From: a virus
DNA: 64,000 nucleotides
Direction: 5' to 3' (one strand)
IMG/VR virus record: IMGVR_UViG_3300045988_176129
Location: 24,700 to 88,699 of that record
Below, piece by piece: positions 1 through 15,504 of the stretch. The position numbers and the translations under genes are program-made. The notes beneath the pieces were generated by a model. The model was not told the origin of the DNA. It saw only the letters and a list, made by a program, of their open reading frames with translations, and did no database searches. Numbering within the stretch: position 1 is the stretch's first letter; every line of letters begins with the position of its first letter.

Positions 1-234
1 CATCTTCTAGTTCAAACAGCTTATCATTCATAGAGTCCAACTCGCCATCACTATCACAAGCCGCATTAAACAAATCTCCTAATCCAACTTTATAAGCTAA
101 CCTTATATTCTTTTTTAAATACTTAATATAGTATTTTATAAATGCGGCAGCTGCCTCTTTATTCTCACCCTTATCTAAATCACAAAATGCCATTTCTAAC
201 AAATCATCTATATCTCTTTTAACTGTTGTAATCA

Positions 235-525
235 TTAATATACCCCCACTTCCTTCGCTAAATCAAATATTCTACTATAAACTAAATTCCTATCACTTTT
301 ATTAGATACGCTATCATCTACTACTTTAAGCATATCTTTCATAGCTTTATAATAAAGCTCTTGTTCCTGATCGCTATATTCTCTTTTATAAGATATATCT
401 AAAGTCTTATTAAAAGGAATTCCATCACATAAATATTTTTTTATCTTACCTACTTGTGCAACAACTGCACTATCAGTAAGCTTTTCATCTTCAAGAGTTA
501 AATTTATTTTTACTTTATACTTCAT
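235..525 (-). CDS. hypothetical phage protein
   Basis: Intact ORF, part of a co-directional minus-strand gene block with short intergenic gaps. Confidence 0.5.
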   Translation of the reverse strand: MKYKVKINLTLEDEKLTDSAVVAQVGKIKKYLCDGIPFNKTLDISYKREYSDQEQELYYKAMKDMLKVVDDSVSNKSDRNLVYSRIFDLAKEVGVY

Positions 526-534
526 ATAGCCCTC

Positions 535-909
535 CTACTTATCTGTTCCTAACTTTGCATAATTCCATAGTGTCTTTGAATTAGCGGTAAAACTTGCTTT
601 TCCATAATCCCAAGCATAAATACTTCCATTTGAATATCCCGCAAAATATCTTGGTATCCATTCATCATCCTGATGCGCCTTAACATAAATAGGAGTATCA
701 ATCTTTACTTTTGACCAATCAACCACTGGTCGATATTCAGATTCTAGCCATGCTTTTTTAGTACCCTTTTTCCAACATTCAACATCATTAAAAATACAAT
801 CCTTACAATCAAAAGTTTCAGTAAGTTTACAATTAATAACTTCGCCAGTCTTTCTATTTACTCCTATCTCTTTCATAATCCCATCTATATAATAATCATA
901 ATTTGTCAT
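535..909 (-). CDS. hypothetical protein
   Basis: Intact ORF, abuts neighbouring genes. Confidence 0.5.
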   Translation of the reverse strand: MTNYDYYIDGIMKEIGVNRKTGEVINCKLTETFDCKDCIFNDVECWKKGTKKAWLESEYRPVVDWSKVKIDTPIYVKAHQDDEWIPRYFAGYSNGSIYAWDYGKASFTANSKTLWNYAKLGTDK

Positions 910-1378
910 GCTTTTTACCTCCTACACATACAAGAATTTCAATATCTTCATCCGCAAAAATTTCTTTAATCATCGCGGAGACCCTGTCCCACTGTAATCT
1001 ATCTAATCCGCATCCTATAAGTGGCATTGCAATCTTCTTAATCTTACTACGTCGGCATTTAATTCTCATTAATACCAAAGCATCACAAAGACTATTATAA
1101 GTAGGTTTTTCATAATATCTTCCTTTTGTTACAAGGTTTATTACTCTTCCTGTTACTATGCACGACATAATACAATGTAAATTAGAATAACGCATCCACT
1201 CTTCATAAAAATCAGAGTTCTCTTTTTTCAACTCTTCTCTTATATTAAATCTTCTATCTATCTCTTTAGTAATGCCTGCGCCCAAAGCAAAATCTGCACT
1301 TATGCAATGCGCAATATAATAACTATCGTCTACAGAAAATAAATTCCTTTTCTCTTCTTTATATATCATATATATCAC
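896..1378 (-). CDS. macro domain (ADP-ribose binding/processing) protein
   Basis: Motifs HCISADFALGAGI and IAMPLIGCGL-DRLQW resemble the macro domain Gly-rich loop and the IAFPxISTGxYG motif. Confidence 0.6.
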   Translation of the reverse strand: MIYMIYKEEKRNLFSVDDSYYIAHCISADFALGAGITKEIDRRFNIREELKKENSDFYEEWMRYSNLHCIMSCIVTGRVINLVTKGRYYEKPTYNSLCDALVLMRIKCRRSKIKKIAMPLIGCGLDRLQWDRVSAMIKEIFADEDIEILVCVGGKKHDKL

Positions 1379-1593
1379 CCCTTTATATTAAGTTCACAAT
1401 CTAATTTAACTACAAAAGTACCATCATCAATATGATTTAATATATTTTGAGTTAAATTAAAAACATTGTAATATTTATTGTATTCACCACTTACTGCCTT
1501 TATATAAATTATTTCTTTAAACTCAAATACATCACCTGGAACTAAATCTTTAAATTTCCATACATCTAATGGTCTTTCATCATTAATTGTCAT
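1375..1593 (-). CDS. hypothetical protein
   Basis: ORF with 4-nt overlap to the downstream gene. Confidence 0.5.
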   Translation of the reverse strand: MTINDERPLDVWKFKDLVPGDVFEFKEIIYIKAVSGEYNKYYNVFNLTQNILNHIDDGTFVVKLDCELNIKG

Positions 1594-1776
1594 ATCCTAT
1601 CTCTCCTTTCCAATAGCAACCCCATCGAATTTCTTTTTCTCTTATTTTATATAAATATTATATCATAAAAATAAAAAAGTATCAACTTATAGCGTCATTA
1701 AAACCGTCTTTTATTGCATTTTCCCGAGTTTTATTGACTTTTTAAAATCTTTATAAGTTGATACTTTTTAATAAAT

Positions 1777-2001
1777 CTAATCTTTTGTTTTTATACGTAA
1801 ATCCGCATTAATCTTATTTACCATATAAAAATCTTCAAAATCATATAATTTTCCATCTGACAAAGAAACAGCATTCTTTTTAAGCTTTTCTCCTTCTATC
1901 TTCATATAGTATATTCCATCATTATTATAAACAAAGACCTCTCCAAGGCTTAAATCTACAAAAGGATGTCTTCTATCTTTAATTTCTATTGATATTTTCA
2001 T
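1777..2001 (-). CDS. hypothetical protein
   Basis: ORF in co-directional block. Confidence 0.45.
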   Translation of the reverse strand: MKISIEIKDRRHPFVDLSLGEVFVYNNDGIYYMKIEGEKLKKNAVSLSDGKLYDFEDFYMVNKINADLRIKTKD

Positions 2002-2002
2002 T

Positions 2003-2302
2003 CTATCTCCTTTTAAAAACTTTTTTAAACTCTTCCTCTGTTAATTTTCTAAATAAAGTATAAGAATAGCGAGGCGGAGCTTCCTGGAATTTTCCATCTA
2101 CTAAATCAGCAAAGAAACCGTTTTTCCCGCTTATCTCAGCTTTCTTTGCTAATTCTAATAAAGTTCCTCCTCCAAGAGGATAATTTCTATAAAAGTTACA
2201 AAGAGCTTCATTATCTTTAGAATAAGCAGAATAAAAATTCTCTGGTGCTTTGATAAAAAACTTCTTTAAATCATTAATTGAATTAATCGACTTAGATTTC
2301 AT
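2003..2302 (-). CDS. hypothetical protein, paralog of the 2299-2607 gene
   Basis: Shares a C-terminal EAPPRYSY / EAEPRYVY motif with its neighbour. Confidence 0.5.
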   Translation of the reverse strand: MKSKSINSINDLKKFFIKAPENFYSAYSKDNEALCNFYRNYPLGGGTLLELAKKAEISGKNGFFADLVDGKFQEAPPRYSYTLFRKLTEEEFKKVFKRR

Positions 2303-2607
2303 TTAACAATACCTCCAAAAATTTCGTCATATTGCTCCTGTGTTAAACTACATTTAATATCATATACATAGCGCGGTTCAGCCTCCTCGATTCTCCCATT
2401 ATTAATGCCAATATAGTAATATTGTTCACCGCGAGCTTCCGCCTCATCTCTTATCTTGTCTATATCCCCCTCATATTGAGAAAGATAACCAAAAGACGAC
2501 TTAAATGCTCGCTTCCAACTTACCTTCTTTCCATTTATATAAATAGAAAGCCTATTTATACATCTTTTAGATATATACTTATCTCGAAATTCACTAAGAT
2601 TATCCAT
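2299..2607 (-). CDS. hypothetical protein, paralog of the 2003-2302 gene
   Basis: Tandem paralog with start/stop overlap. Confidence 0.5.
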   Translation of the reverse strand: MDNLSEFRDKYISKRCINRLSIYINGKKVSWKRAFKSSFGYLSQYEGDIDKIRDEAEARGEQYYYIGINNGRIEEAEPRYVYDIKCSLTQEQYDEIFGGIVK

Positions 2608-2618
2608 ATATGTTCTCC

Positions 2619-3251
2619 TTATCTACGAACAGAGCCGTCATTATAAAAACTTATAGCATTATCGCCCTTGTTAGAGTCTTTATCTAATTCCATATAAGCT
2701 TTCAATCTATCTATATCATACTGTACATCTACATAATCAAAAGATTCCTGTATCCTATCAATTGCCGCAATACCTTCTTTTACTAACTTCAATTGCTGTT
2801 GTTTAATTATTCTATCTCTTGCGGAAGTCAGCGTTTTTCGCATTTCTTTTGATGTAGCTGCTGCTATTGCATTATTAATTATATCTATATTAATTTCAAG
2901 ATTATTATTCTTTTTATCTTTAATATAGTGACTTCTATATATTAGAATTATAACACCTATGACTATTAAATCAATAATCCAACCATACATATAAATATTA
3001 ATAAATTTCATTATCCTTATCCCTATTACCGCGAAACAGATTTCTCCTCCTGCAATCATTATATCAGTCATAATCCATCCAATTGAGAAGCCTCCAATCT
3101 CTTTATCGTCAAAGAAATCAATTTGCATAATTTTACATATATCACGGCTATATTTAGATTCCAAAAATTTATTGTATATTATTGTAATAATACTTAAATA
3201 AATGGGAATAGCGTATATCCCGTGAAAAAATACAAGAGCTTTAGCAACCAT
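2619..3251 (-). CDS. membrane protein
   Basis: Several hydrophobic segments followed by a C-terminal coiled-coil-like region. Confidence 0.5.
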   Translation of the reverse strand: MVAKALVFFHGIYAIPIYLSIITIIYNKFLESKYSRDICKIMQIDFFDDKEIGGFSIGWIMTDIMIAGGEICFAVIGIRIMKFINIYMYGWIIDLIVIGVIILIYRSHYIKDKKNNNLEINIDIINNAIAAATSKEMRKTLTSARDRIIKQQQLKLVKEGIAAIDRIQESFDYVDVQYDIDRLKAYMELDKDSNKGDNAISFYNDGSVRR

Positions 3252-3266
3252 TCCTTAATATACCCC

Positions 3267-3767
3267 CTAACAATCAAGATAATATATAATATAATAATCT
3301 TCTATTGGATTATCCGTTATAATATTAGAAATAATATTTTTATCAGGATTATATATATTCTCATATACCATAAACGTATATAATTCTGGATGCTCAATAG
3401 CTTCTACATTGGTTATTACTTCATCCTCATCTGGAACATAACCCTTATTTTCAATTAGCCACTTATCGTACTCAGTAAAATATCCAGCTCTAATTTGAGG
3501 CTTATATTGAAGAAACCAATCAACATAATCTTTTAACTTCATATAATAAAAATTATAATAGCAATCTTTAATATGGGCATCTTCAATCTTCTTTGGTATC
3601 TTTATATCTTTTGGCAATCCATAGTGAGCTGGATAATGCTTATATTCAGGATCAGCGCCCTTTTCAGTTATATTATCAAACCAGTGATAATTTCTTTCAT
3701 CATAAAGATTGTCATTTATTATATTACCTTTATTATCAATAAGATACATATGTATATCTGCTCCCAT
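3267..3767 (-). CDS. hypothetical protein
   Basis: Intact ORF. Confidence 0.5.
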   Translation of the reverse strand: MGADIHMYLIDNKGNIINDNLYDERNYHWFDNITEKGADPEYKHYPAHYGLPKDIKIPKKIEDAHIKDCYYNFYYMKLKDYVDWFLQYKPQIRAGYFTEYDKWLIENKGYVPDEDEVITNVEAIEHPELYTFMVYENIYNPDKNIISNIITDNPIEDYYIIYYLDC

Positions 3768-3770
3768 GAT

Positions 3771-4193
3771 TTATGCCTCCTTTGTTTTTTTTGCAGTTAC
3801 AACCTTGGTTACCTTTGTACGATTATCGTCATACTTATGCGGATATAATTCTTCACAATTTATAGCGTCTGTAATTTCATACATCTGCATATCTCTATTT
3901 ACTAAAAAATTTCTATCAAATAAATTAGAATATTCATATTCCTCGTCATTTGAGTCAAGATAAAAATATGAATTATAAGCTATGTCATTATATAAAAGAA
4001 AACACTCCTTTTCATCCATTAATGTACGAATTGTCTTTAACTCCTCTAACCTTTCTTCTAAATCAGCAATCTTAGAATTTAATAAATCATCAAATTCTTC
4101 TCTAAGCTGTATTTTTATTTCTGGCTTTATATTTTTTGAACTTCTAAATGTCCCACTTGCTAAATCAAATTTTGTTAATGCACTCTTACTCAT
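3771..4193 (-). CDS. hypothetical coiled-coil protein
   Basis: Intact ORF. Confidence 0.5.
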   Translation of the reverse strand: MSKSALTKFDLASGTFRSSKNIKPEIKIQLREEFDDLLNSKIADLEERLEELKTIRTLMDEKECFLLYNDIAYNSYFYLDSNDEEYEYSNLFDRNFLVNRDMQMYEITDAINCEELYPHKYDDNRTKVTKVVTAKKTKEA

Positions 4194-4264
4194 AACTCAT
4201 ACCCTCTTTCTTCATTTTGTATATATATTATATTATAATTTTTATAAAATATCAATAGGGAGAG

Positions 4265-4642
4265 TTATTCCTCTCCCTTAATGTGCGCGATTGCAGCTTC
4301 TATGCTTCCATCATTCTTAGCTGTTATCGTCAGATAATCTCTAACATCAGATTCCGACCATCCACTTTCCGCGCTTAATGTAATACATTGCTTATCGCTT
4401 ATTCCAAAATCATGTGCTTCTTCTCTCAATCTTATATTTATCGAAAAAATTAACCAAGCAATAGCTATAAATACCATGGCTATTGTTTTTAAACAAGCAT
4501 TTCTATAGAAGGCTGCCTTTTTTTCATTCTTTGATTTTTCTGCTCTTGCAATGTCTATATATATAGAAAGAGGTACAATAGCAACAGCCAATGAAAAAAT
4601 AATATACATTATCCACATCCAAATCCCTGTAGCATTCCACAT
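4265..4642 (-). CDS. membrane protein
   Basis: Two N-terminal transmembrane-like segments. Confidence 0.5.
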   Translation of the reverse strand: MWNATGIWMWIMYIIFSLAVAIVPLSIYIDIARAEKSKNEKKAAFYRNACLKTIAMVFIAIAWLIFSINIRLREEAHDFGISDKQCITLSAESGWSESDVRDYLTITAKNDGSIEAAIAHIKGEE

Positions 4643-4643
4643 A

Positions 4644-4838
4644 TTATTCGTACCTCATTTCCCTTTTATTTATTTTATCCATCTTTCTGCGGCGGTTATC
4701 AGTTCTTGCAGGCTTTCCGCCAGGTAATTTACGGTAAGTTTTACAATGCTGGCAAGCCGCATAAAAAGTTCCTTCTTTACCAAGATCACAATTACCCTCT
4801 GCCTTATAATGCAAGCAAGCTATTTCTCTATTCTTCAT
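4644..4838 (-). CDS. small zinc-ribbon-like protein
   Basis: Cys pairs CLHYKAEGNC and CQHC. Confidence 0.45.
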   Translation of the reverse strand: MKNREIACLHYKAEGNCDLGKEGTFYAACQHCKTYRKLPGGKPARTDNRRRKMDKINKREMRYE

Positions 4839-5044
4839 TATTTTACCTCCCCATACGCCAACATATGCAATAAAACAGTACCAATCATTGTAAATAAAAG
4901 AAAAATAATAGTTAAATAACTATAAAATGTTGTAGAATCTACATGTTTTTCTTCTTCTACTTTTGATGAAATGTGTCCTAGAATTATAGTTATCGCCCAC
5001 ATTACAACTGATAAAACCCATATAGCATATACCCATATTTTCAT
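4838..5044 (-). CDS. small membrane protein
   Basis: Hydrophobic ORF. Confidence 0.4.
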   Translation of the reverse strand: MKIWVYAIWVLSVVMWAITIILGHISSKVEEEKHVDSTTFYSYLTIIFLLFTMIGTVLLHMLAYGEVK

Positions 5045-5047
5045 TAT

Positions 5048-5278
5048 CTAGTCACACCTCCTTTTATAAATACAAAGGCATGGAGATCCATCTTCTATTG
5101 TATCAAGAAAAATGCCTTCTCCAATATCATCTGTATCAACAATCCCCTCTGCCATCTCCCATGGGCAGTTATATACCTCGCCTTTCCAAAGAACTTCCCA
5201 ATCTTCAGGTCCAACGTATTCTAAAATCTTAATATAAGCATAGGTATCAAGATTCTTTAATAATTTTCTAATCTTCAT
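5048..5278 (-). CDS. hypothetical protein
   Basis: Intact ORF. Confidence 0.45.
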   Translation of the reverse strand: MKIRKLLKNLDTYAYIKILEYVGPEDWEVLWKGEVYNCPWEMAEGIVDTDDIGEGIFLDTIEDGSPCLCIYKRRCD

Positions 5279-6017
5279 AATCTTCCTCCCATCCCCACTG
5301 ATAGATAAAACCTGAATAATCTATCAAAACTGGCTTTCCTTTTATATAACCAATATTTGCCTCGTGTAAGTCATTGTTATAACTAGCATCTATTAAAAAA
5401 TCAAAAAACTTTATAGTTTCTTCAGTGCCAATCGCGCCAATTAAATCTGCTATCCATCTATCTGGAATACAATTAAAGTATTCATCAAAATTAAAAAAAC
5501 TTGAAGTTACATTTTTTACTAAGGCGATTTCTTCTTTTGTCCTTAAAGCGTCACCGTCAAAAGCGTCATAATAAATTATTGCTTTTTCCTGTATATAAAT
5601 AGGAATATTGTTGTCTATATTTCCATAATAATATTCTTTTGCTATTAAGTTCCCATAGCCTTTTTTACAAATATCATAACATCTATCTACTTCAATTGCA
5701 CAAAAATCATCATGTCCTTCCGGATCGAACCTTGAAAAAGATTCATAATCTTCATTTATCTTTTCATCATAATCATTATTGATAAAATGAGCATCATATA
5801 TTCCCAGAATAGGAATTTTATATACATAATTAGTATTTGTATTAATTGGAATAAGGGCTACCTTAGTTGCGCCTACCCCTATCTCAAAATTTGAAGTAAT
5901 TTCCTCATCCTTATAAAGCCAATCAAAATCGTCCACACAATCAATAGAAGGATTTTCTCTTTTAAAACATTTCTTTATTATAGATATATATTTTTTCTGC
6001 TCTTCATTAATATTCAT
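5268..6017 (-). CDS. hypothetical protein
   Basis: 249-aa ORF. Confidence 0.55.
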   Translation of the reverse strand: MNINEEQKKYISIIKKCFKRENPSIDCVDDFDWLYKDEEITSNFEIGVGATKVALIPINTNTNYVYKIPILGIYDAHFINNDYDEKINEDYESFSRFDPEGHDDFCAIEVDRCYDICKKGYGNLIAKEYYYGNIDNNIPIYIQEKAIIYYDAFDGDALRTKEEIALVKNVTSSFFNFDEYFNCIPDRWIADLIGAIGTEETIKFFDFLIDASYNNDLHEANIGYIKGKPVLIDYSGFIYQWGWEEDYED

Positions 6018-6087
6018 AAAACATCAATTCCTTTCATATCTTATAAATATATTATATAATATTTTAATAAAAATGTCAATAGAGAAA

Positions 6088-6654
6088 TTACTTCCTTTTA
6101 CCTCTGGTAATTATTGTTTGGCGGCGACCCTTATAAACATCATGCTTTTTTACTGTAAAAGCAAGAGTAAAGTCATTTACATCTTCATCAAGCCACACAT
6201 CCGTAAACCAAATTAACACATTCTCACCAAGAGTAAAAGTGTAAGCGACTTTATCCCCATAATAAGAAGTATAACAGCTGCGGTTTTCGAGGTGTAAGGT
6301 TTCCGTATATCTCTGCCCCACTTTTCCATAGAAATCACTGTTTTTATGGGGTAACTCTGGTATAATGATTCGTGATACCGTGTCTTCCGCATGCTCTTTA
6401 ACTTCAACAGTTCCAATCATAGGATTAAAAAGGTAAACATCATTAAAATCCATTTCCGCAGGTATTAAAGGGTTTTCTGCCCCAAGATTGATTGCTGTCG
6501 GAGAGTGCCACTTTAATAATTTATCAAACTTAGCTCCCGCCGCCTTAAGCTGTTCTTTATAAGGATAGGTGTTTCCAATATAAAGAAAAGTCTTTAAGTC
6601 TTTATTAAAGCCATGATCTAATGCCCATTCCATCCTAGATGAATATTTCTTCAT
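6088..6654 (-). CDS. hypothetical protein
   Basis: 188-aa ORF. Confidence 0.55.
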   Translation of the reverse strand: MKKYSSRMEWALDHGFNKDLKTFLYIGNTYPYKEQLKAAGAKFDKLLKWHSPTAINLGAENPLIPAEMDFNDVYLFNPMIGTVEVKEHAEDTVSRIIIPELPHKNSDFYGKVGQRYTETLHLENRSCYTSYYGDKVAYTFTLGENVLIWFTDVWLDEDVNDFTLAFTVKKHDVYKGRRQTIITRGKRK

Positions 6655-6664
6655 ATTAAAACCC

Positions 6665-6847
6665 CTACCAATATTTTACTATTGTACCTATATTATACAT
6701 TTCTCCTATAGCTTTTGGTTTAGTAATCTGCTCTCCGCATTTAGTACACTGAACTATATATTTATTCTTATCTTTTTCACAAGCAATTATTTTTACTGAT
6801 TTATGTTTACAAAAAGCCTTTATTAAACTCATAATTAAGCACCCCAC
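6665..6847 (-). CDS. small zinc-ribbon protein
   Basis: CxxC pairs (CEKD...CTKCGEQ). Confidence 0.4.
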   Translation of the reverse strand: MGCLIMSLIKAFCKHKSVKIIACEKDKNKYIVQCTKCGEQITKPKAIGEMYNIGTIVKYW

Positions 6848-7155
6848 TCCATAATATACTTAGCCATAGTATTCTCAAGTCCCCAAATAGGAGGCTCTCC
6901 ACCTTCAATATCACTATAAAGAATTTCTGGATAAATTCTTTCTACTGCATCTCTAAGAGTTGCAAAGCTTGGACGAAAATAATGCGTCTTATACTGAATA
7001 ACAAGAGCTGAAAGCTCATATGGAGTAATGTCATCAATTCCAGCAATTTCATACCATTCGCTTACCTCTATTGACACATCTGCTTCTGTACCATCCAAAT
7101 GCTTTTCATCTAAATAATCCATAACCAATTTTGTTGCTCTTGTAATAACTTTCAT
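6835..7155 (-). CDS. hypothetical protein
   Basis: Intact ORF. Confidence 0.5.
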   Translation of the reverse strand: MKVITRATKLVMDYLDEKHLDGTEADVSIEVSEWYEIAGIDDITPYELSALVIQYKTHYFRPSFATLRDAVERIYPEILYSDIEGGEPPIWGLENTMAKYIMEWGA

Positions 7156-7158
7156 ATA

Positions 7159-7353
7159 TTAATCCACCTTTCTAACAAGCTTTTCAAGCTTTACTAAATA
7201 AGTTTCAAAATCATCTGTTTCTTTAGGGCAAAGAGTTTTATCTTTTAAGCCCAAATCATAAGAACAATATCCTGGATGTTCTCGGTTGCCCCACATACAT
7301 TCATTACTCTTATCACATTTTTTCATCTTTTCTCCTCTCTTTATCTTACACAT
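7159..7353 (-). CDS. hypothetical Cys-containing small protein
   Basis: First gene of the minus block, preceded by a divergent promoter region. Confidence 0.45.
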   Translation of the reverse strand: MCKIKRGEKMKKCDKSNECMWGNREHPGYCSYDLGLKDKTLCPKETDDFETYLVKLEKLVRKVD

Positions 7354-7557
7354 ATATTATATAATAAAAATAGAAATTTTTCAAGTCATGCGGCATTGCA
7401 GCTTCCGCGAATTTTCCATCAACTGAAAAACTTCCTTTTATATATATTATGCGCGTATAATAATATAATTTTTTATTTTTGTCAACATAATATTCCTTTT
7501 ATTGACAGAAAAAATTTTTTATGATATAATTTTTATAAAGGTAAAGGAGATATAAAT

Positions 7558-7815
7558 ATGGACAAATTGGAAATTCTTGAAAAAAGAATAAAAAATTTAG
7601 AAAATATCGCTCTTCAACAAGGAGAGCAAATAAAAAATATTATAGAAGCATTACAAGCAGAAAATACTTTTATGAAAAATCAAACTAATGTTAATAAACA
7701 GATAACAGAAGCAATACATGAAGCTTTTGTCGAAATTAATGAATTATCTACAAAAGTATCTTCATTAAATAATAAAAAAGAAAAGAGGAGCATGTATGAA
7801 ACCAGGAACCATTAA
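7558..7815 (+). CDS. hypothetical coiled-coil protein
   Basis: RBS aaaggagat upstream. Confidence 0.55.
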   Translation: MDKLEILEKRIKNLENIALQQGEQIKNIIEALQAENTFMKNQTNVNKQITEAIHEAFVEINELSTKVSSLNNKKEKRSMYETRNH

Positions 7816-8014
7816 TATGTCGATAGATTATTTTCAATATTTAATAGACCCATATCCAAAATGGTTTTTTGAAAAATTTAAAGATGTTCGAGAGATTCTA
7901 ATAAATGGAGAAAAATATTTATCATTTCCGCACGGGGAATTATGCGGAAAGGGCGATTATGTTCTTTCTATTGGTTCTTATATGATTCCTTTACGGCAGG
8001 AGGATTGCAAATAA
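7796..8014 (+). CDS. hypothetical protein
   Basis: ORF with RBS. Confidence 0.5.
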   Translation: MKPGTINMSIDYFQYLIDPYPKWFFEKFKDVREILINGEKYLSFPHGELCGKGDYVLSIGSYMIPLRQEDCK

Positions 8015-8244
8015 TGGAGCCTATAAAATTTAACGGAATTATTACTGAACCTCATGTTACAGAAGATGATAAAATAATAGCGACTTGGACTCAGCTCAGA
8101 AAAGGGGAAATTACTTTAAATAATGCTTTTCTTAATTTAAATAATGCTTTCTTTAATTGGGATTTATTAAAAGAGTTAGCAGAATTGAATAAGAATACAA
8201 AAGATAGAGATAGATACAAGGGGATGTTTAAAAATGAAAACTAA
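8014..8244 (+). CDS. hypothetical protein
   Basis: ATG overlaps the upstream stop (TAATG) with RBS aggagg; the longer 7942 start lacks an RBS. Confidence 0.5.
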   Translation: MEPIKFNGIITEPHVTEDDKIIATWTQLRKGEITLNNAFLNLNNAFFNWDLLKELAELNKNTKDRDRYKGMFKNEN

Positions 8245-8557
8245 GCATTATTTATTATATTCAGGCAATAAAGGAAATATAGATGCTCTTTTTGGTGCAT
8301 TAAAGATAGAATTTAAAAATGATATAAAAAGAATAACAAATGAAAATTTTAAGAAAGAAATATATATTGAACAAAATGGGATAATGTATATTTATACTTG
8401 GTATAGGGATTTGCGAGGACGACATTTTGAGGTTGGAGAGTTTGAAGCGGTTTATGTAGATGAATGTTTCTATAATACTAAATATTATTTTAATTTAATC
8501 AATATGAATGATTGGGTTACTCCAGAATCAATTTGTTCAGATATAAGATTTTTTTAG
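8234..8557 (+). CDS. hypothetical protein
   Basis: Intact ORF. Confidence 0.5.
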   Translation: MKTKHYLLYSGNKGNIDALFGALKIEFKNDIKRITNENFKKEIYIEQNGIMYIYTWYRDLRGRHFEVGEFEAVYVDECFYNTKYYFNLINMNDWVTPESICSDIRFF

Positions 8558-8565
8558 GAGAGATT

Positions 8566-8979
8566 ATGTATAAACAAATAATAATAGCAAGGAAAGATTT
8601 GAATATGAGTCCGGGAAAGCTTGCCGCTCAAGTATCACATGGATCAATGGTATTTCTTAGCTGGTTTATTAGAAATAATGCTGATTTAGATGGACATATA
8701 GATGCTTGGTTTGATGAAGGAATTCTTCACAATTGGATTGAGGGTGAGTTTACAAAATGTGTTCTTCAAGCTAAAAATAAGAACCAGTTGCTAAAAGCTA
8801 AAACTATGGCGGAAGGATTAGGGATGACAGAAGGAAAAGATTTTTGGTTGATAAAAGATAATTGCCACACAGAATTAGAACCGGAAGAAGATGGTAGGAC
8901 TCTTACTTGCATAGGTTTCCGCCCAATGGATAGTGAGATAATAGATAAAATAGGTAAAAAATATCATTTATATGTATAA
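8566..8979 (+). CDS. peptidyl-tRNA hydrolase, PTH2 family
   Basis: KQIIIARKDLNMSPGKLAAQVSHGS matches the PTH2 core (VVRTDLxMGKGKIAAQCSHA); start chosen at MYKQ with RBS aggaga. Confidence 0.7.
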   Translation: MYKQIIIARKDLNMSPGKLAAQVSHGSMVFLSWFIRNNADLDGHIDAWFDEGILHNWIEGEFTKCVLQAKNKNQLLKAKTMAEGLGMTEGKDFWLIKDNCHTELEPEEDGRTLTCIGFRPMDSEIIDKIGKKYHLYV

Positions 8980-9385
8980 GAGGGTTTATATTATGAATAA
9001 AAATGTAGAAACTACATGTTATATAGCAAGAGCTATTGATAAAGGTGTTGCATATCTTGGATTAAAAGAAAATGAATATTATACCTTATTTCCTTGCGGC
9101 GATGATGCTTGGATGGTCTATAGACATGGAAAATATATAGGAACTGGCAAGACTTGTTATTTTGAAATTCTATCTTTTAGACTAATGAATAGACCAGTTT
9201 TTAATATTGGGGATGATGTCGCCGCAGAAATAATATTAGATGATTTATCTTTTAAATGGATTAAAGGAATTATTAAAGACATAGAAATATCCAATGTTTT
9301 TGATTCTTATTATTATACTATTGAAGATAAAGAAAATAATGAAATATATGATAATATATGGGAAGATAATATCAAGTTCACATAG
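8972..9385 (+). CDS. hypothetical protein
   Basis: Intact ORF. Confidence 0.5.
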   Translation: MYKRVYIMNKNVETTCYIARAIDKGVAYLGLKENEYYTLFPCGDDAWMVYRHGKYIGTGKTCYFEILSFRLMNRPVFNIGDDVAAEIILDDLSFKWIKGIIKDIEISNVFDSYYYTIEDKENNEIYDNIWEDNIKFT

Positions 9386-9414
9386 AATTACCTATTGACT
9401 TTTCTTTAAAAATT

Positions 9415-9696
9415 TTGTATAATATATACATAATAAAAAGAAAGGAAATGATGAATATGTTTGATGTAGGTAGCCCATATCATATGTATATGATGGAAAA
9501 GGAAGGTATGCTTGATACGCACGCTTCAAAAGTAAATAAACTTATTGAAACATTTAACAGATTGGTGGCATATGGACACGATATTAATGATTCAGAAGTT
9601 CAGGAATATGCTTTTCAGGAATGCGGCATTAGTTATGAAGAACTTTCTGACAGAGACCTTCATAGAATAAAGTCAGCAATTGAAAATTCTTATTAA
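9415..9696 (+). CDS. hypothetical protein
   Basis: Intact ORF; the start may be at the internal MMNMF. Confidence 0.45.
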   Translation: MYNIYIIKRKEMMNMFDVGSPYHMYMMEKEGMLDTHASKVNKLIETFNRLVAYGHDINDSEVQEYAFQECGISYEELSDRDLHRIKSAIENSY

Positions 9697-10086
9697 AAAG
9701 TTTGACTTTTGAAAAAATTTTTGTTATAATAATTATACAAAGTTAAGGAACACAAAGTTCTCTTAACAGGAAAACCAGACCCCGCGGGGAATAAACGGAG
9801 TGACCTGTGAGCGATCAGGGGATAATGACCAGAACATTAAAGATATTACTACTCATGCTTCACTTTTAAAAGAAGGTATACCGGGTGCGGTTTATGGAGA
9901 ACTATTAAAGTTGCAACTTATCCAAAAGAAAAAATCTCCTTTTGGCGAAATCCAAAAGAAAAACTAGCTAGGTTAAATGATAGTATAGAAAACCTAGCAA
10001 TTGTCAAGATATAAATAAATGCATTGACATTTTAAAAAAATTATAGTATAATAAATATATAAAAGAGAGAAAAGGAGAAATGCGCT

Positions 10087-10479
10087 ATGGAGAACACAGC
10101 AAAGATGACACAGATTGATATTTATGAGAAGATTAAGGAGATTGTTTCAGCATCAGAGGATGCAGATGTTGCTACAATTGTAGAGTTCTGTGATAAGAAG
10201 ATTGCTCAGGCAATTGATAAGAGAGAGAAGGCACAGGCTAAGGCTGCTGAGAAGAAGGCAGAGAGTGATGAAATGACAGATGCAATTGCTGAGATTCTTA
10301 CTGAGGATGGTAAGACAGCAGAGGATATTGCTCAGGCTCTTTCAGCGAGATTTGAGGATATTACAAAGGCTAAGGTTGTTTCAAGAATGGGCAAGCTTGT
10401 AGCAGCTGGTAGAGCTTCTAAGGTTAAGGAAGGCAAGAACCCTATGGTTTACATGCTTCCAACAGCAGTAGCTGAGTAA
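10087..10479 (+). CDS. acidic Ala/Glu-rich small protein, paralog family with 60376 and 62421
   Basis: RBS aaaggagaaatg upstream. Confidence 0.55.
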   Translation: MENTAKMTQIDIYEKIKEIVSASEDADVATIVEFCDKKIAQAIDKREKAQAKAAEKKAESDEMTDAIAEILTEDGKTAEDIAQALSARFEDITKAKVVSRMGKLVAAGRASKVKEGKNPMVYMLPTAVAE

Positions 10480-10548
10480 TTATATATTTAGATTATAAAG
10501 TGTTAGGGTAGGAAGGTAACTTTCTACCCTATTTTAATAGGAGGAATT

Positions 10549-11415
10549 ATGTCTTATTTTAATTTAGAATATACAGAAAAATTTAAGTATAAAAATGCGA
10601 ATAATGTTAGTTACTGGATTCTTTATAATGGACATGATGAAGGAGTTAAAGATTTTCTTATAAGAAATAAAGAAAAGCATATAACTATTTGTTTTGCTGA
10701 TAAAATTTTAGAAAATATGGAACTTTATTCAAGCGGAGATAAGTTAATTGATTTTATCATTAATGGAAAAGAAAAATTCTATATAAATTTAGTAAAAGAA
10801 GGAATAAATAATTTTGTTTTACAAATTCCTTATCATGTAGAGGGGGCCAGAGAACTGGCAATCACGCTTAAAGAGAATGGAGTGCCTTTTTATTTTATGG
10901 ATGCGGTTACATCATGGGAACAGTTAAATAGTTTTATTGAAGATGGAGTATCAGATGTTCTCGTGTCTAGCTCTTTTGCTTTTAATATTAGAGACATCGC
11001 AGAAAAATGTCACAAAGAGGGTGTTCAAGTTAGAGTGATTCCGAACATCTATCAATCCGCAGAATATAATGATGGATCAATGGGCTTCTTCATAAGACCA
11101 GAGGCTATTGGTTTATATTCAAAATATATAGATATATTTGAATTAAGATGCTCAAAAGATGTTTGTAACACAATATATGAGATTTTTGCTATTGATAAAG
11201 AATGGTATGGAGACATAAGTGAGATTATAGCGGGTGCCCCAAAAGGAATAACCAATAGGAATATAGTAGAATTATTTGATATAGCAAGAACCAATTGTGG
11301 CAAAAAGTGCGTAAAACCTATGAATGGTTGTAATATATGTGATACTGCTATAAGATTAAGTAAAACTTTTACCGATTATAATATTGAATATAAAAACAAT
11401 AAATTGAAAAAGTAA
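10549..11415 (+). CDS. hypothetical protein with C-terminal Cys cluster
   Basis: RBS aggagg; contains CGKKC...NGCNIC. Confidence 0.55.
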   Translation: MSYFNLEYTEKFKYKNANNVSYWILYNGHDEGVKDFLIRNKEKHITICFADKILENMELYSSGDKLIDFIINGKEKFYINLVKEGINNFVLQIPYHVEGARELAITLKENGVPFYFMDAVTSWEQLNSFIEDGVSDVLVSSSFAFNIRDIAEKCHKEGVQVRVIPNIYQSAEYNDGSMGFFIRPEAIGLYSKYIDIFELRCSKDVCNTIYEIFAIDKEWYGDISEIIAGAPKGITNRNIVELFDIARTNCGKKCVKPMNGCNICDTAIRLSKTFTDYNIEYKNNKLKK

Positions 11416-13505: not shown

Positions 13506-13638
13506 TTGAAAAAATAAAAAAATTATATTATAATATATATACAAAGTTAAGAAAGGGATATAAAAAATAAATAAAAATTTTCTTGACAAAAATGTTAAAA
13601 TATGTTATAATAAAAAAGAAATAAGATACAAAACATTT

Positions 13639-13713
13639 TGGGATGTGGTCTAGTTTGGCTAAGACGCAGGATTTGGGTTCCTGAAATCGAGAGTTCGAGT
13701 CTCTCCATTCCAA
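13639..13713 (+). tRNA. tRNA-Pro(TGG)
   Basis: Hand-folded cloverleaf: 7-bp acceptor, D-stem gtct/agac, anticodon loop tttgggt, T-arm gagag-ttcgagt-ctctc. Confidence 0.8.
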
Positions 13714-13843
13714 TTTTCATAAATTAAATATAATAATTGATATTATAAAAAATTTATGATATAATAATTATATAAGATGAAGGAATGTGAAACATTCCCA
13801 TGTAAGTTCCCTTTGCGGTTTTCTTCTTTATCTTATATATTAT

Positions 13844-13981
13844 TCCCTAGTAGCTCAGTTGGTAGAGTGTCTGACTGTGCGGAAATAGTATAAGCAGTAC
13901 GTCTGTAGCCCAGAAGATTTGAGTTCAAATCTCAATTTCCGATTAATCAGAATGTCGTAGGTTCGAGTCCTACCTGGGGAG
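13844..13981 (+). tRNA. tRNA-like gene with GTG-type anticodon loop interrupted by a ~65-72-nt insertion
   Basis: Canonical acceptor, D-arm and T-arm; the anticodon-stem halves (tctga / tcaga) are separated by 72 nt. Confidence 0.4.
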
Positions 13982-14120
13982 CTAGGTTAAGTTATTCATA
14001 GACTCGCCGATTGCAGAAAGTAGGAATGTTGTTATTTAAAATGGTAACACAGTCGCCGAAAGGACTGTCTGTCAGACTCCTTGACGGAGAATAGGAGTAG
14101 AGTTATAAGTGAAGATGATT

Positions 14121-14145
14121 GGAGGTTCGAATCCTTCCCCGCCGA
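14121..14145 (+). other. orphan canonical T-arm plus 3' acceptor-like element (unresolved tRNA or tRNA-like RNA end)
   Basis: ggagg-ttcgaat-ccttc followed by cccgccg; no 5' partner found within 100 nt. Confidence 0.3.
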
Positions 14146-14312
14146 AAAGTGGTGGGCGCGAAAGGAGTGCTAATCGAAGAACTTATTTTAGTTGAAGTAC
14201 AAAGTGTGTTGCAGCATATGGAGTAAATACTAAAGTAACTCGACAAGATTTACTGCAATAAGTCTTGATAGCTTAGTCATCTAATTGGAAGGATGCCACG
14301 GTATGTGGTCAC

Positions 14313-14337
14313 AGAGGTTCGATTCCTCTCTAAGATT
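14313..14337 (+). other. orphan canonical T-arm element (unresolved tRNA-like)
   Basis: agagg-ttcgatt-cctct followed by ctaagat; a possible 5' partner attttag lies 145 nt upstream. Confidence 0.3.
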
Positions 14338-14548
14338 TAGGCTCGGACTTTAACCCCGAGGGTAATAATTAGGGTTATTGCGTACAGAGAGATTGCCGAA
14401 CATTACGTATCCTCACTCTACCTTAACGAGATAAGGTGTAAAGATGTCTATGAAATGTCGTTTGAAAGAGATTTAGAGAGTTCACGAAGTAGCTCACCTT
14501 GTATCTTCAAGTTATGCTTCTTGGGGATATAGACAAAAAGCATTTTAA

Positions 14549-14620
14549 TCCGATTTAGTACAATGGCTAGTACCCTGGCTTTGTAACCCAGTGATAAGTG
14601 TTCGATTCACTTAATCGGAA
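14549..14620 (+). tRNA. tRNA-Thr(TGT)
   Basis: Acceptor tccgatt/aatcgga, D gtac/gtac, anticodon loop tttgtaa, T aagtg-ttcgatt-cactt. Confidence 0.75.
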
Positions 14621-14744
14621 CTTAAAAATCATGCCATAGCGTAAGCAAAAGGTAGTTAGCTCAAAAGTAATAGATATAGGTCAGCCTTTTTACCTGTCTA
14701 TAGGATAGAGTGTTAGTTTTCTAGGTATGTTCTAACGAATAAAT

Positions 14745-14816
14745 GCCGATGTAGTATAATGGTTAGTACACCTGTCTTCCAAACAGGATATGCGAGTTCG
14801 ATTCTCGTCATCGGCT
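14745..14816 (+). tRNA. tRNA-Gly(TCC)
   Basis: Acceptor gccgatg/catcggc, anticodon loop cttccaa, T gcgag-ttcgatt-ctcgt. Confidence 0.8.
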
Positions 14817-14828
14817 TTAAAATAATTT

Positions 14829-14900
14829 GGGGTTATAACTCAATGGAAGAGTAATTGCTTTGCAAGCAATAGGTTGAGAGTTCGAGTCTCTCTGGCTCCA
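14829..14900 (+). tRNA. tRNA-Ala(TGC)
   Basis: Anticodon loop tttgcaa, T gagag-ttcgagt-ctctc, acceptor with G-U pairs. Confidence 0.75.
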
Positions 14901-14903
14901 CCT

Positions 14904-14976
14904 GCGAAAATAGTTCAGTTGGTAGAGCACACGTCTGATACGCGTGAAGTCGATGGTTCAAATCCATCTTTTCGCA
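14904..14976 (+). tRNA. tRNA-Ile(GAT)
   Basis: D-loop agttggtagagc, anticodon loop ctgatac, T gatgg-ttcaaat-ccatc. Confidence 0.8.
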
Positions 14977-14982
14977 TTATAT

Positions 14983-15055
14983 ACTGGTTTAGTTTAATGG
15001 ATAAAATATTTAGCTACGAACTAAAAGAGTATAGGTTCAATTCCTATAACCAGTA
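14983..15055 (+). tRNA. tRNA-Arg(ACG)
   Basis: Acceptor actggtt/aaccagt, anticodon loop ctacgaa, T atagg-ttcaatt-cctat. Confidence 0.75.
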
Positions 15056-15135
15056 TTAAATGTATTTATAATGGTAACTGGCAAACTTATTTGACTTAGA
15101 ATCAAATATTTGAGAGTTTAAATTTTTTAGACGCA

Positions 15136-15164
15136 TTGACAAAAATAAAAATTTTTGTTATAAT
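15136..15164 (+). promoter_or_regulatory. sigma70-type promoter (TTGACA-17-TGnTATAAT) driving a non-coding region
   Basis: ttgaca ... tgttataat. Confidence 0.6.
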
Positions 15165-15300
15165 ATTATTAAGGAAGTTGCGGAAAGAAAACTGTTTAAC
15201 CTTATCAAAAATAAACAAAACTGCTGACCTTATTTCAGTGGAGAATAGGGTATAAAGGAAAATATAAGAGAGAACCCGTGCAGCAACCGGTACGTAAAAT
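15165..15300 (+). ncRNA. candidate small non-coding RNA (no ORF; flanked by promoters)
   Basis: Lies between two promoters; locally GC-richer; contains paired segments gcaaccggtacg...ggttgcccc. Confidence 0.25.
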
Positions 15301-15439
15301 AATGGTTGCCCCTTTAATTTGATATTTTTAAAAATTTTTGATATAATATATATATCAAATAAAAAAGAAAAATACTGAGTTGTCATTCTTCTAAGTATTT
15401 GGATAGTAATAACAAAAGAATGTTCGCTGGATTGGTTAG

Positions 15440-15490
15440 TTGGACTTGAGAATTTTCTCAATTGTGGTTCGATTCCACTTTGACCACTTA
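15440..15490 (+). other. degenerate tRNA-like element (acceptor + anticodon-like arm + T-arm, no D-arm)
   Basis: tggttag ... ttgag-aattttc-ctcaa ... gtgg-ttcgatt-ccac-tttgacca. Confidence 0.25.
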
Positions 15491-15504
15491 TCATAAAACA
15501 ATAT

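What the first reader, a model, noticed from the sequence alone, without database searches (positions are those of the whole stretch)
896..1378. Macro-domain protein in the early-gene block (candidate anti-ADP-ribosylation or anti-defence factor)
The Gly-rich loop FALGAGI and the IAMPLIGCGL motif are macro-domain hallmarks. Phage macro domains can reverse DarT-type DNA ADP-ribosylation or degrade ADPR-derived immune signals. The gene sits among small early genes, typical of anti-defence loci.
Basis: partly seen in the sequence, partly recalled or inferred. Interest (0 to 1): 0.5.

Follow-up and report, generated by a model that had tools for sequence, protein, structure and literature searches.

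The report
Phage TARG1-type ADP-ribose hydrolase gene
This is a real, intact gene for a small enzyme of the human-TARG1 type that removes ADP-ribose tags. A large, uncultured phage probably makes it early in infection to undo ADP-ribosylation by the host, a plausible counter-defence that belongs to a kind already known.

Summary
Window 896-1378 (minus strand) is a real gene, most likely starting at the ATG at 1369 (157 aa). The Pfam Macro hit is just under threshold (21.1 vs 22 bits). Stronger evidence settles it: the protein matches human TARG1/OARD1 over its full length (E 1.5e-22, 42% identity), the AlphaFold model (pLDDT 90.7) superposes on TARG1 (TM 0.88), and the catalytic Lys/Asp dyad (K82, D123) and the published TARG1 signature are intact.

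It is not a DarG antitoxin: it has no DarT-binding domain and no toxin neighbour. It is only remotely related to AdfM, the one proven phage macrodomain anti-DarT factor.

Four related phages keep the gene at the same place (dN/dS 0.16-0.34). A conserved near-consensus host-type promoter lies upstream, within a block of small unknown genes, so early expression is likely.

Relatives occur in about 300 mostly large viral contigs and as stand-alone genes in Clostridia and Paenibacillus. No conserved partner gene was found.

The best reading is an early ADP-ribosylhydrolase that reverses host ADP-ribosylation of phage DNA, RNA or protein, with DarT2-type thymidine-ADPr the leading candidate. The substrate is inferred, not shown.

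This is a new member of a known kind, of modest interest.

The parts
896..1369 (-). Coding sequence of the 157-aa TARG1-type macrodomain protein (ATG 1369-1367, stop 898-896). Catalytic K82 and D123; Gly-rich loop G30-A31-G32; loop 3 is P116-L-I-G-C-G-L-D123.
   Evidence: ORF list. PDB phmmer gives TARG1 at E 1.5e-22. Residue mapping. AF2 pLDDT 90.7. Foldseek gives TARG1 at TM 0.88. dN/dS is 0.16-0.34 against relatives.
1375..1384 (-). Shine-Dalgarno-like AAAGGGGTGA, 6 nt before the ATG. It contains the GTG that the mechanical ORF list took as the start, and the TGA stop of the upstream gene.
   Evidence: Sequence. The same AAAGG(G/A)GTGAT is conserved before the ATG in L001, L173 and L174.
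1375..1593 (-). 72-aa gene of unknown function immediately upstream, probably co-transcribed with the macro gene. It is variable among relatives: absent in L001 and 46-50% identical in L173 and L174.
   Evidence: only PHROG families of unknown function; no Pfam hit.
1657..1685 (-). Near-consensus sigma-70/sigma-A-type promoter with extended -10 (TTGATA-17-TG-TATAAT), in the 183-bp gap upstream of the 72-aa gene and macro unit.
   Evidence: Promoter scan, 11/12 with TG. The same promoter type lies upstream of the macro unit in L173 (-323), L174 (-265) and L001 (-56, directly before macro). Enrichment test.
535..909 (-). 124-aa gene of unknown function (PHROG 21026). It overlaps the end of the macro gene by 14 nt and is adjacent to macro in all four relatives. 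The overlap itself is specific to this phage and L172.
   Evidence: gene tables.
4227..4255 (-). Further near-consensus promoter of the leftward small-gene block (11/12), given as context for the 'early block' claim.
6051..6079 (-). Further consensus promoter of the leftward block (12/12).
7356..7384 (-). Near-consensus promoter at the head of the leftward block, in the divergent region that faces the rightward PTH2 block.

Best explanation
The gene encodes a stand-alone, catalytically competent TARG1-type macrodomain ADP-ribosylhydrolase. By analogy with TARG1, Lys82 attacks C1'' of the distal ribose of an ADP-ribose adduct and Asp123 helps resolve the intermediate, releasing free ADP-ribose and the unmodified target.

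The phage is a roughly 140-kb, 31% GC, tRNA-rich virus, judging from the 143-kb related contig. Its host is probably a gut Clostridia-like bacterium. The gene is transcribed by unmodified host RNA polymerase from a conserved strong promoter, so the enzyme should be present from the start of infection.

Its most likely job is to strip ADP-ribose that host ADP-ribosyltransferase-based immunity attaches to phage macromolecules. The leading candidate is thymidine-linked ADP-ribose on single-stranded phage DNA, written by DarT2-type toxins. That would make it an 'orphan antitoxin-like' counter-defence enzyme.

Shown here: the fold, the subtype, the intact active site, purifying selection, conservation in the phage lineage, the promoter context and the absence of any fixed partner gene. 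Inferred: enzymatic activity, early timing, and above all the physiological substrate.
For: Identity: PDB phmmer gives E 1.5e-22 to human TARG1, with 55 of 131 aligned residues identical. K84 maps to K82 and D125 to D123, and both are invariant in a 47-sequence family alignment. The published TARG1 pattern TKx(30,35)Px[IL]GxGxD (PMC6397177) is met here and in 119 of 120 database homologues. AF2 pLDDT is 90.7. Foldseek ranks TARG1 first (TM 0.88), then DarG macrodomains. The PADLOC DarG model matches the macro part at 3.5e-12.

Function precedent: TARG1 removes DarT thymidine-ADPr and rescues E. coli from DarT in a K84-dependent way (PMC8501950). Phage macrodomain AdfM counters DarTG2 (PMC13309987).

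Expression: a TTGATA-17-TG-TATAAT promoter lies at 1685-1657 and is conserved in relatives. Six sites score >=11/12 against 0.74 expected, and all are intergenic.

Selection and conservation: the gene is present at the same position in L001, L172, L173 and L174, while the adjacent small genes vary. dN/dS is 0.16-0.34.

Stand-alone enzyme: no conserved neighbour across 25 mostly viral clades or 48 bacterial clades.

Phage prevalence: 296 IMG/VR contigs, mostly 80-290 kb. In other phages it lies among replication and repair genes: PolIII alpha, DNA ligase, DnaB, Gam, Holliday-junction resolvase.
Against: No assay has been done, so the substrate is unknown. TARG1-type enzymes are promiscuous: they act on Asp/Glu-ADPr, PAR chains, O-acetyl-ADP-ribose and phosphate-end ADPr on RNA and DNA (PMC6397177; PMC11833690).

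The protein is not of the DarG/AdfM type. BLASTP to PhiKZ gp104 finds nothing and hhalign gives only 21% identity. The DarG/AdfM catalytic Asn position is Ser here.

One clade of large phages carries both a TARG1-type and a DarG/AdfM-type macro 5-8 kb apart. This suggests the two types do different jobs.

Homologues about 55% identical sit in ordinary chromosomal contexts in Clostridia, between rplT and a SASP gene, so a housekeeping role exists for the family.

The host is unknown, so I could not check whether it carries DarT2 or another ADP-ribosyltransferase. The neighbouring genes carry no recognisable anti-defence function.
Confidence: 0.45

Rival explanations
1. NAD-metabolite housekeeping. 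The enzyme mainly deacylates O-acetyl-ADP-ribose (the sirtuin product) or otherwise recycles ADP-ribose derivatives. This would support NAD+ economy during infection rather than reverse a macromolecular modification.
For: The only characterised bacterial TARG1 (FmTARG1) is highly efficient on O-acyl-ADP-ribose (PMC6397177). In other phages the homologue lies near SIR2 (L007), near NadR-like, PnuC and NAD-dependent ligase genes (L009), and near an isochorismatase/nicotinamidase-like gene. Chromosomal homologues have housekeeping neighbours. This phage encodes an NAD-dependent DNA ligase.
Against: No SIR2, NAMPT, NadR or other NAD-salvage family appeared among 75 ORFs of the window scanned against Pfam. 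These neighbour associations occur in only a few clades. An early strong promoter in a block of small variable genes fits host takeover or counter-defence better than metabolism.
Confidence: 0.2
2. Nucleic-acid end healing. The enzyme removes ADP-ribose from 5'- or 3'-phosphate ends of RNA or DNA (written by Tpt1/KptA-like or other transferases), so that the phage's ligases can reseal broken tRNA or DNA.
For: Human TARG1 removes phosphate-end ADPr from RNA and DNA (PMC11833690). The window encodes an RNA ligase, a Thg1-like enzyme, AAA_33/KTI12 kinase-like proteins, Metallophos_2 proteins, a cREC_REC domain, PTH2, an NAD-dependent DNA ligase and 21 tRNAs. In other phages an ATP-dependent DNA ligase lies next to the macro gene (5 of 25 clades) and a PNK-like AAA_33+HD protein lies nearby.
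Against: In this window the repair genes are 45-57 kb away, on the other strand block. No Tpt1/KptA was detected. The ligase association covers only about 20% of clades and could simply reflect placement in replication modules.
Confidence: 0.15
3. Eraser for the phage's own ADP-ribosyltransferase. The macrodomain limits or times modifications written by a phage Alt/Mod-like enzyme.
For: Phage ADP-ribosyltransferases exist, for example T4 Alt, ModA and ModB, and AcrIF11 (PMC8120803). Only 64 kb of a genome of about 140 kb was available, so such an enzyme could lie outside the window.
Against: No ADP-ribosyltransferase family was found among 75 scanned ORFs. No conserved partner appears in any clade. 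The largest unknown protein of the block looks kinase-like, not ART-like.
Confidence: 0.07
4. Destruction or sequestration of ADPR-derived immune signals (Thoeris gcADPR or His-ADPR), as the first reader also suggested.
For: Macro domains can bind such signals: the Thoeris II ThsA macro domain binds His-ADPR (bioRxiv 10.64898/2026.06.04.730250). There is a weak PADLOC ThsA macro hit (E 0.039).
Against: The ThsA hit is insignificant. The intact K/D hydrolase dyad points to TARG1-type chemistry on C1''-linked adducts. I found no report of a TARG1-type enzyme acting on these signals.
Confidence: 0.03

Closest known systems
Human TARG1 / OARD1 / C6orf130 (PDB 4J5R, 4J5S, 2L8R)
   Same: Full-length homology (E 1.5e-22, about 42% identity over 131 residues). 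Same compact macrodomain of about 150 aa (TM 0.88). Same catalytic Lys/Asp dyad and the same ligand loops.
   Different: A phage gene with an 8-10-residue insertion in the helical region (residues about 55-65). It has a short disordered C-terminal tail (152-157, pLDDT about 40) that closer phage relatives lack. Its activity is untested.
FmTARG1 (Fusobacterium mortiferum FMAG_01619), the characterised bacterial TARG1
   Same: Same TARG1 signature TKx(30,35)Px[IL]GxGxD. The family is concentrated in Firmicutes and Fusobacteria (PMC6397177).
   Different: FmTARG1 sits in an operon with an immunity-protein-51 gene. The window gene and its relatives have no conserved partner. I did not have the FmTARG1 sequence, so no direct comparison was made.
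DarG antitoxin of DarTG2 (PDB 5M31, 5M3E, 5M3I, 7OMU)
   Same: Same macrodomain branch (ALC1/TARG1/DarG). The catalytic Lys is at the equivalent position. It is the second-best structural match (Foldseek E about 2e-7), and the PADLOC DarG model matches the macro part.
   Different: 16-18% identity. There is no C-terminal DarT-binding domain (157 aa against about 340; NCBIfam DarG 41 bits against a cut-off of 250). There is no adjacent toxin. It has TARG1-type Ser and Asp instead of the DarG-type Asn.
AdfM (PhiKZ gp104 and chimallivirus homologues), the phage macrodomain anti-DarT2 factor (PMC13309987)
   Same: A stand-alone phage macrodomain of about 160 aa with the catalytic Lys conserved. 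It shows that phages use orphan macrodomains against DarTG2.
   Different: Only remote homology: BLASTP finds nothing and hhalign gives 95% probability at 21% identity. AdfM is DarG2-like and is imported into the phage nucleus. The window protein is TARG1-like, and some phages carry both types.
PHROG 335 ('phosphatase') and annotated phage homologues (Fusobacterium phage Fnu1 gp106, Lactobacillus phages LP65 orf36 and LpeD gp068, Bacillus phage G gp437)
   Same: Same protein family (PHROG 335 E 2e-25; tblastn 34-42% identity over more than 90% of the length).
   Different: None of these has been studied functionally. The 'phosphatase' label is an inherited Appr-1''-p annotation, not a tested activity.

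Membership tests
Macrodomain superfamily | Three-layer alpha/beta/alpha fold with a central mixed beta-sheet | tested here: met
   The AF2 model (pLDDT 90.7, pTM 0.87) has alternating strands and helices. 105 PDB matches at E<=1e-3 are led by macrodomains.
Macrodomain superfamily | Match to the Pfam Macro model PF01661 above the gathering score | tested here: not met
   21.1 bits against a cut-off of 22, and only residues 79-136 match. This is a borderline miss. Several close homologues do carry a precomputed PF01661 hit.
Macrodomain superfamily | ADP-ribose-binding loops (Gly-rich loop 1; P-x-[IL]-G-x-G loop 3) | tested here: met
   G30-A31-G32 and P116-L-I-G-C-G121 align with TARG1 G41-A42-G43 and P118-R-I-G-C-G123. 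They are invariant or nearly invariant in the family.
TARG1/OARD1-type macrodomain | Full-length sequence homology to TARG1 | tested here: met
   E 1.5e-22, query residues 10-150 against chain residues 12-143. 55 of 131 aligned residues are identical.
TARG1/OARD1-type macrodomain | Catalytic dyad Lys84 / Asp125 | tested here: met
   K82 and D123 align to them. Both are invariant in 47 sequences.
TARG1/OARD1-type macrodomain | Published signature TKx(30,35)Px[IL]GxGxD (PMC6397177) | tested here: met
   T81-K82, then 33 residues, then P116-L-I118-G-C-G-L-D123. Also met in 119 of 120 database homologues and in 91 of 102 cluster members at the viral and related loci, where 10 of the 11 exceptions are the second, DarG-type macro.
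TARG1/OARD1-type macrodomain | ADP-ribosyl (Asp/Glu, OAADPr, nucleic-acid) hydrolase activity | not testable with these tools
   Needs a biochemical assay.
DarG antitoxin (DarTG2) | Two-domain protein: N-terminal macrodomain plus C-terminal DarT-binding domain (about 340 aa) | tested here: not met
   The protein is 157 aa. The NCBIfam DarG equivalog scores 41.4 bits against a cut-off of 250 and matches profile positions 71-145 only. The PADLOC DarG model matches positions 65-142 of 329.
DarG antitoxin (DarTG2) | Adjacent darT toxin gene | tested here: not met
   Ten neighbouring ORFs have no Pfam hit at E<=0.01. No conserved adjacent gene appears in 48 bacterial or 25 mostly viral clades.
AdfM (phage anti-DarT factor, macro) | Recognisable homology to PhiKZ gp104 / DarG2-type active site (Asn + Lys) | tested here: not met
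   BLASTP gives E 5.3. hhalign gives 95% probability at 21% identity. The Lys is conserved, but the Asn position is Ser and AdfM lacks the Asp.
AdfM (phage anti-DarT factor, macro) | Removes DarT2 ADP-ribose from DNA and protects the phage from DarTG2 | not testable with these tools
   Needs biochemical and phage-plating experiments. The precedent for TARG1-type enzymes is PMC8501950.

The most novel reading that the evidence does not exclude
TARG1-type macrodomains of large phages are a counter-defence class distinct from the DarG-like AdfM. They would be aimed at an ADP-ribosylating host immunity other than DarT2, for example ADP-ribose on nucleic-acid phosphate ends, or Asp/Glu-linked modification of phage proteins by bacterial PARP-like enzymes of Clostridia. 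This would explain why some phages carry both a TARG1-type and a DarG-type macrodomain and why the family is so common in large gut phages.
Probability: 0.2. Interest if true: 0.6.

Novelty: new member of a known kind. Interest (0 to 1): 0.3.

Why it matters
ADP-ribosylation of phage DNA and RNA (DarTG, CmdTAC and related systems) is a recently recognised arm of bacterial immunity. Phage 'orphan antitoxin' hydrolases are only now being described: the NADAR-type enzyme of T4-like phages and the macrodomain AdfM.

This gene adds a third enzyme type, TARG1-like with the Lys/Asp dyad. The family is widespread in large uncultured gut phages and has never been tested. The literature describes bacterial TARG1 sequences as scarce, around thirty.

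It is a cheap, well-defined candidate for biochemical testing. By itself it does not change the picture.

Tried and rejected
- **Pfam Macro as the sole test:** it is sub-threshold, so I used PDB sequence and fold evidence instead.
- **DarG membership:** rejected. There is no second domain and no toxin neighbour.
- **AdfM membership:** rejected. Homology is only remote.
- **A functional partner among neighbours:** PHROG and Pfam scans of the ten closest ORFs gave nothing informative. PDB sequence searches of five block proteins gave nothing.
- **A conserved partner by neighbourhood clustering:** none in 92 mostly viral loci (best 7 of 25 clades, PolIII alpha) and none in 82 bacterial loci (best adjacent 2 of 48).
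- **A phage ADP-ribosyltransferase, SIR2, Tpt1 or NAD-salvage gene in the window:** none among 75 ORFs. The list for the second half showed 25 of 28 families; given the table's ordering, the three hidden ones should be weaker than E 6e-4.
- **A second macro gene in the window:** none.
- **Near-identical cultured phage:** none by megablast. The topoisomerase has only about 34% identity to anything in the phage collection, so the phage could not be classified and the host not named.
- **DarT distribution in Clostridia from the literature:** the review I consulted gave no usable statement.

Full report
**1. The observation**

The mechanical ORF list shows a 160-codon ORF at 896..1378 on the minus strand.

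The minus-strand sequence around the start reads ...AATATAAAGGGGTGATATATATGATATATAAAGAAGAG.... The GTG at 1378 lies inside a Shine-Dalgarno-like AAAGGGGTGA and overlaps the TGA stop of the upstream 72-aa gene. An ATG follows 6 nt later, at 1369.

The ATG start gives a 157-aa protein. This matches the length of P0001, a 99%-identical database protein, and closer relatives are 147-150 aa. The same SD-ATG arrangement is conserved in three related phage contigs. I therefore place the gene at 896..1369 (-).

**2. What the protein is**

The Pfam Macro model only just misses its gathering score (21.1 bits against 22, C-terminal half only). Other evidence is unambiguous:
- phmmer against all PDB chains gives human TARG1/OARD1/C6orf130 at E 1.5e-22 over essentially the whole protein.
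- A pairwise alignment has 55 of 131 aligned residues identical.
- PHROG 335 matches at 2e-25.
- An AlphaFold2 model built on 47 homologues has mean pLDDT 90.7 and pTM 0.87.
- Foldseek against the PDB ranks eight TARG1 entries first (TM up to 0.88, rmsd about 2.1-2.8 A, 33-35% identity). DarG macrodomains follow at E about 2e-7.

The TARG1 catalytic dyad Lys84/Asp125 corresponds to K82 and D123. Both are invariant in the family alignment.

The signature that Garcia-Saura et al. designed for TARG1-type macrodomains is TKx(30,35)Px[IL]GxGxD (PMC6397177). It is satisfied here: T81-K82, then 33 residues, then P116-L-I-G-C-G-L-D123. It is also satisfied in 119 of 120 retrieved homologues.

The protein is therefore a TARG1-type macrodomain with an intact active site.

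**3. What it is not**

It is not a DarG antitoxin:
- The NCBIfam DarG equivalog scores 41 bits against a cut-off of 250 and matches only the macro part.
- The PADLOC DarG model likewise matches only profile positions 65-142 of 329.
- There is no room for a DarT-binding domain in 157 aa.
- None of ten neighbouring ORFs has any Pfam hit.

It is also not a close relative of AdfM, the chimallivirus macrodomain shown in 2026 to remove DarT2 modifications (PMC13309987). BLASTP against PhiKZ gp104 finds nothing. A profile comparison gives 95% probability at 21% identity. It aligns the catalytic Lys but puts Ser at the AdfM/DarG Asn position, and AdfM has no Asp equivalent.

**4. Genomic setting**

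The window is 29-36% GC and has 21 tRNA genes at 13.6-20.2 kb. It has no megablast match among 50,697 phage records.

It encodes typical large-phage functions:
- two-subunit topoisomerase II
- RNA ligase
- NAD-dependent DNA ligase
- endolysin
- ThyX
- RNase H
- a Thg1-like enzyme
- PTH2

The macro gene lies in a leftward block (about 7.4 kb down to the window edge) of small genes. Almost none has a family assignment. The block diverges from a rightward block that starts with PTH2.

In 1-9000 there are six promoter-like sites matching at least 11 of 12 consensus positions. A first-order Markov resampling expects 0.74, and 0 of 300 resamplings reached six. All six lie in the 13% of sequence that is intergenic, on the correct strand for the adjacent genes. 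One caveat: three of them lie in the divergent region, where I treated an 82-codon plus-strand ORF as spurious.

One site, TTGATA-17-TG-TATAAT at 1685-1657, heads the unit formed by the 72-aa gene and macro. The same promoter type lies upstream of the macro unit in three related contigs. In L001 it sits directly before macro (-56), because the small gene is missing there.

This is good indirect evidence that the gene is read by unmodified host RNA polymerase, that is, early in infection.

**5. Conservation**

Four related phage contigs keep the macro gene at the same position: L172 (99%), L173 (85%), L174 (78%) and L001 (77%, from a 143-kb contig). The three or four small genes just upstream come and go. 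Pairwise dN/dS is 0.16-0.34, so the gene is under purifying selection.

**6. The wider family**

The large protein database holds 3769 clusters at E<=1e-5. In IMG/VR, 296 contigs encode a relative, most of them 80-290 kb. In 185,579 species-representative genomes there are 174 hits, mostly Oscillospiraceae, Lachnospiraceae, other Clostridia and Paenibacillus. Some hits are probably phage contigs binned into MAGs.

Copies about 55% identical are found in three kinds of setting:
- ordinary chromosomal surroundings in spore-forming Clostridia: infC-rpmI-rplT, then macro, then a SASP gene and the rnf genes
- apparent mobile elements
- other large phages

Neighbourhood clustering found no conserved partner:
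- In 25 identity clades of the first set of loci (mostly viral), the best-represented neighbour families were PolIII alpha (7 clades) and an ATP-dependent DNA ligase (5). Four clades or fewer each had an isochorismatase-like protein, a PNK-like AAA_33+HD protein, YopX or DnaB.
- In 48 bacterial clades, no adjacent same-strand gene recurs in more than two.

Cultured phages already carry annotated members: Fusobacterium phage Fnu1 gp106 ('phosphatase / O-acetyl-ADP-ribose deacetylase 1-like'), Lactobacillus phages LP65 and LpeD, and Bacillus phage G gp437.

The family is thus a mobile, stand-alone enzyme that is common in large phages.

**7. Mechanism and role**

The chemistry can be inferred with good confidence from TARG1. 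Lys attacks C1'' of the distal ribose, Asp assists, and ADP-ribose is released (PMC6397177, PMC8120803).

The physiological substrate cannot be read from sequence. TARG1-type enzymes are known to act on:
- Asp/Glu-linked mono-ADP-ribose and whole PAR chains, and O-acyl-ADP-ribose (FmTARG1, PMC6397177)
- DarT-made thymidine-ADP-ribose on ssDNA, with K84-dependent rescue of E. coli from DarT (PMC8501950)
- ADP-ribose on 5' and 3' phosphate ends of RNA and DNA; human hydrolases other than PARG, like all macrodomain- and ARH-type enzymes tested, were inactive on 2'-OH-linked and guanine-linked RNA ADP-ribose (PMC11833690)

Several points favour a counter-defence role against host ADP-ribosylation: early expression from a strong host-type promoter, placement in a variable block of small genes, prevalence in phages, frequent placement near replication and repair genes elsewhere, and the AdfM precedent. 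DarT2-type DNA modification is the leading single candidate. I put this at about 0.45.

**8. Evidence that tempers this**

- The protein is TARG1-like, not DarG/AdfM-like.
- One clade of large IMG/VR phages (10 loci) carries both a TARG1-type macro and, 5-8 kb downstream, a second macro of DarG/AdfM type. That second macro matches BT1257 at 2e-6, the M. tuberculosis DarG macro at 1.3e-5, and PhiKZ AdfM by BLASTP at 6e-7. This suggests a division of labour, so the TARG1-type enzyme may serve another target.
- Some phage homologues lie near SIR2, NadR/PnuC or nicotinamidase-like genes. This keeps an NAD-metabolite role alive.
- The window's RNA-repair toolkit (RNA ligase, Thg1-like, kinase-like and phosphoesterase proteins) keeps an end-healing role alive, although those genes are 45 kb or more from the macro gene.
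- No ADP-ribosyltransferase, sirtuin or Tpt1 was detected in the 64-kb window.

**9. Novelty and verdict**

Its interpretation is partly supported: the domain call is right and can be sharpened to the TARG1 type. The 'early gene' context is supported by promoters. The anti-defence role is reasonable but unproven. The 'signal degradation' idea has no support.

Members of this family are already annotated in cultured phages and in PHROGs. Phage macrodomain counter-defence against DarTG2 has been published. I therefore rate this as a new member of a known kind, interest about 0.3.

The most novel reading still open is that TARG1-type phage macrodomains form a separate counter-defence class with a target other than DarT2. 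I give it a probability of about 0.2.

Noticed in passing
L040:16738-17199 (also L032, L033, L035, L042, L053, L060, L068, L071, L076): One clade of large IMG/VR phages carries a second macrodomain, of DarG/AdfM type (153 aa, 'AHQVNCKG...'), 5-8 kb downstream of its TARG1-type macro. It matches BT1257 at 2e-6, the M. tuberculosis DarG macro at 1.3e-5, and PhiKZ AdfM by BLASTP at 6e-7. Two macro types in one phage suggests they are not redundant.
   Followed up: partly
window 5268-6017 (-): A 249-aa protein in the same early block. Its family has 45 database proteins, with invariant G49, K52, K67, E109, D216, N221 and D233. The AF2 model has pLDDT 89.6. All top Foldseek PDB hits are protein-kinase-like folds (APH(2''), Rio2, AceK, Lpg2603), but they are weak (E>=1e-3, TM about 0.3). 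It is a candidate divergent kinase-fold early protein.
   Followed up: partly
window 13638-20160 (+): An array of 21 tRNA genes covering 18 amino acids, with two tRNA-Met, two tRNA-Leu and two tRNA-Ser.
   Followed up: no
window 45984-47219 (+) and other ORFs in 35-64 kb; one ORF in 1-35 kb not located: An RNA/tRNA-repair-like toolkit: RNA ligase (PHROG 968), a Thg1-like tRNA-His guanylyltransferase with Thg1C, an AAA_33/KTI12 kinase-like protein and two Metallophos_2 proteins. PTH2 lies at 8512-8979.
   Followed up: partly
window 52980-58502 (+): Two-subunit topoisomerase II (642 and 790 aa) followed by a 369-aa NAD-dependent DNA ligase-like protein. The topoisomerase has at most about 36% identity to anything in the phage collection, so the phage is far from cultured phages.
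   Followed up: partly
window 1-35 kb, ORF(s) not pinned down (candidates 27259-28518, 28979-30310, 30868-32340, 32724-34559): Pfam hits to Listeria-Bacteroides repeat (Flg_new), BspA-type LRR_5, LRR_8 and YadA_head repeats. These are probably receptor-binding or surface-adhesin-like proteins.
   Followed up: no
window 20273-21238 (+): A 321-aa protein with a weak, sub-threshold radical SAM hit (23.6 bits against a cut-off of 29.5), immediately after the tRNA array.
   Followed up: no
L009:1-1568 and 9009-10997; L007:4867-5616: In other large phages the TARG1-type macro lies near NAD-related genes. These are a NadR-like CTP_transf_like+AAA_28 protein, a PnuC-type NMN transporter and a full-length NAD-dependent LigA (L009), and a SIR2 protein about 2 kb upstream (L007).
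   Followed up: no
L018 and L044 (same contig, IMGVR_UViG_3300013845_000001): One 128.6-kb viral contig holds two TARG1-type macro copies about 16 kb apart.
   Followed up: no
L010/L011:8001-8444: A 59%-identical homologue (P0046) sits in what looks like a mobile element, alongside DUF932, a RecD2-like helicase, an N6-methyltransferase with a specificity domain, and a faint PemK hit. This may be a conjugative-element leading region or anti-restriction region.
   Followed up: no
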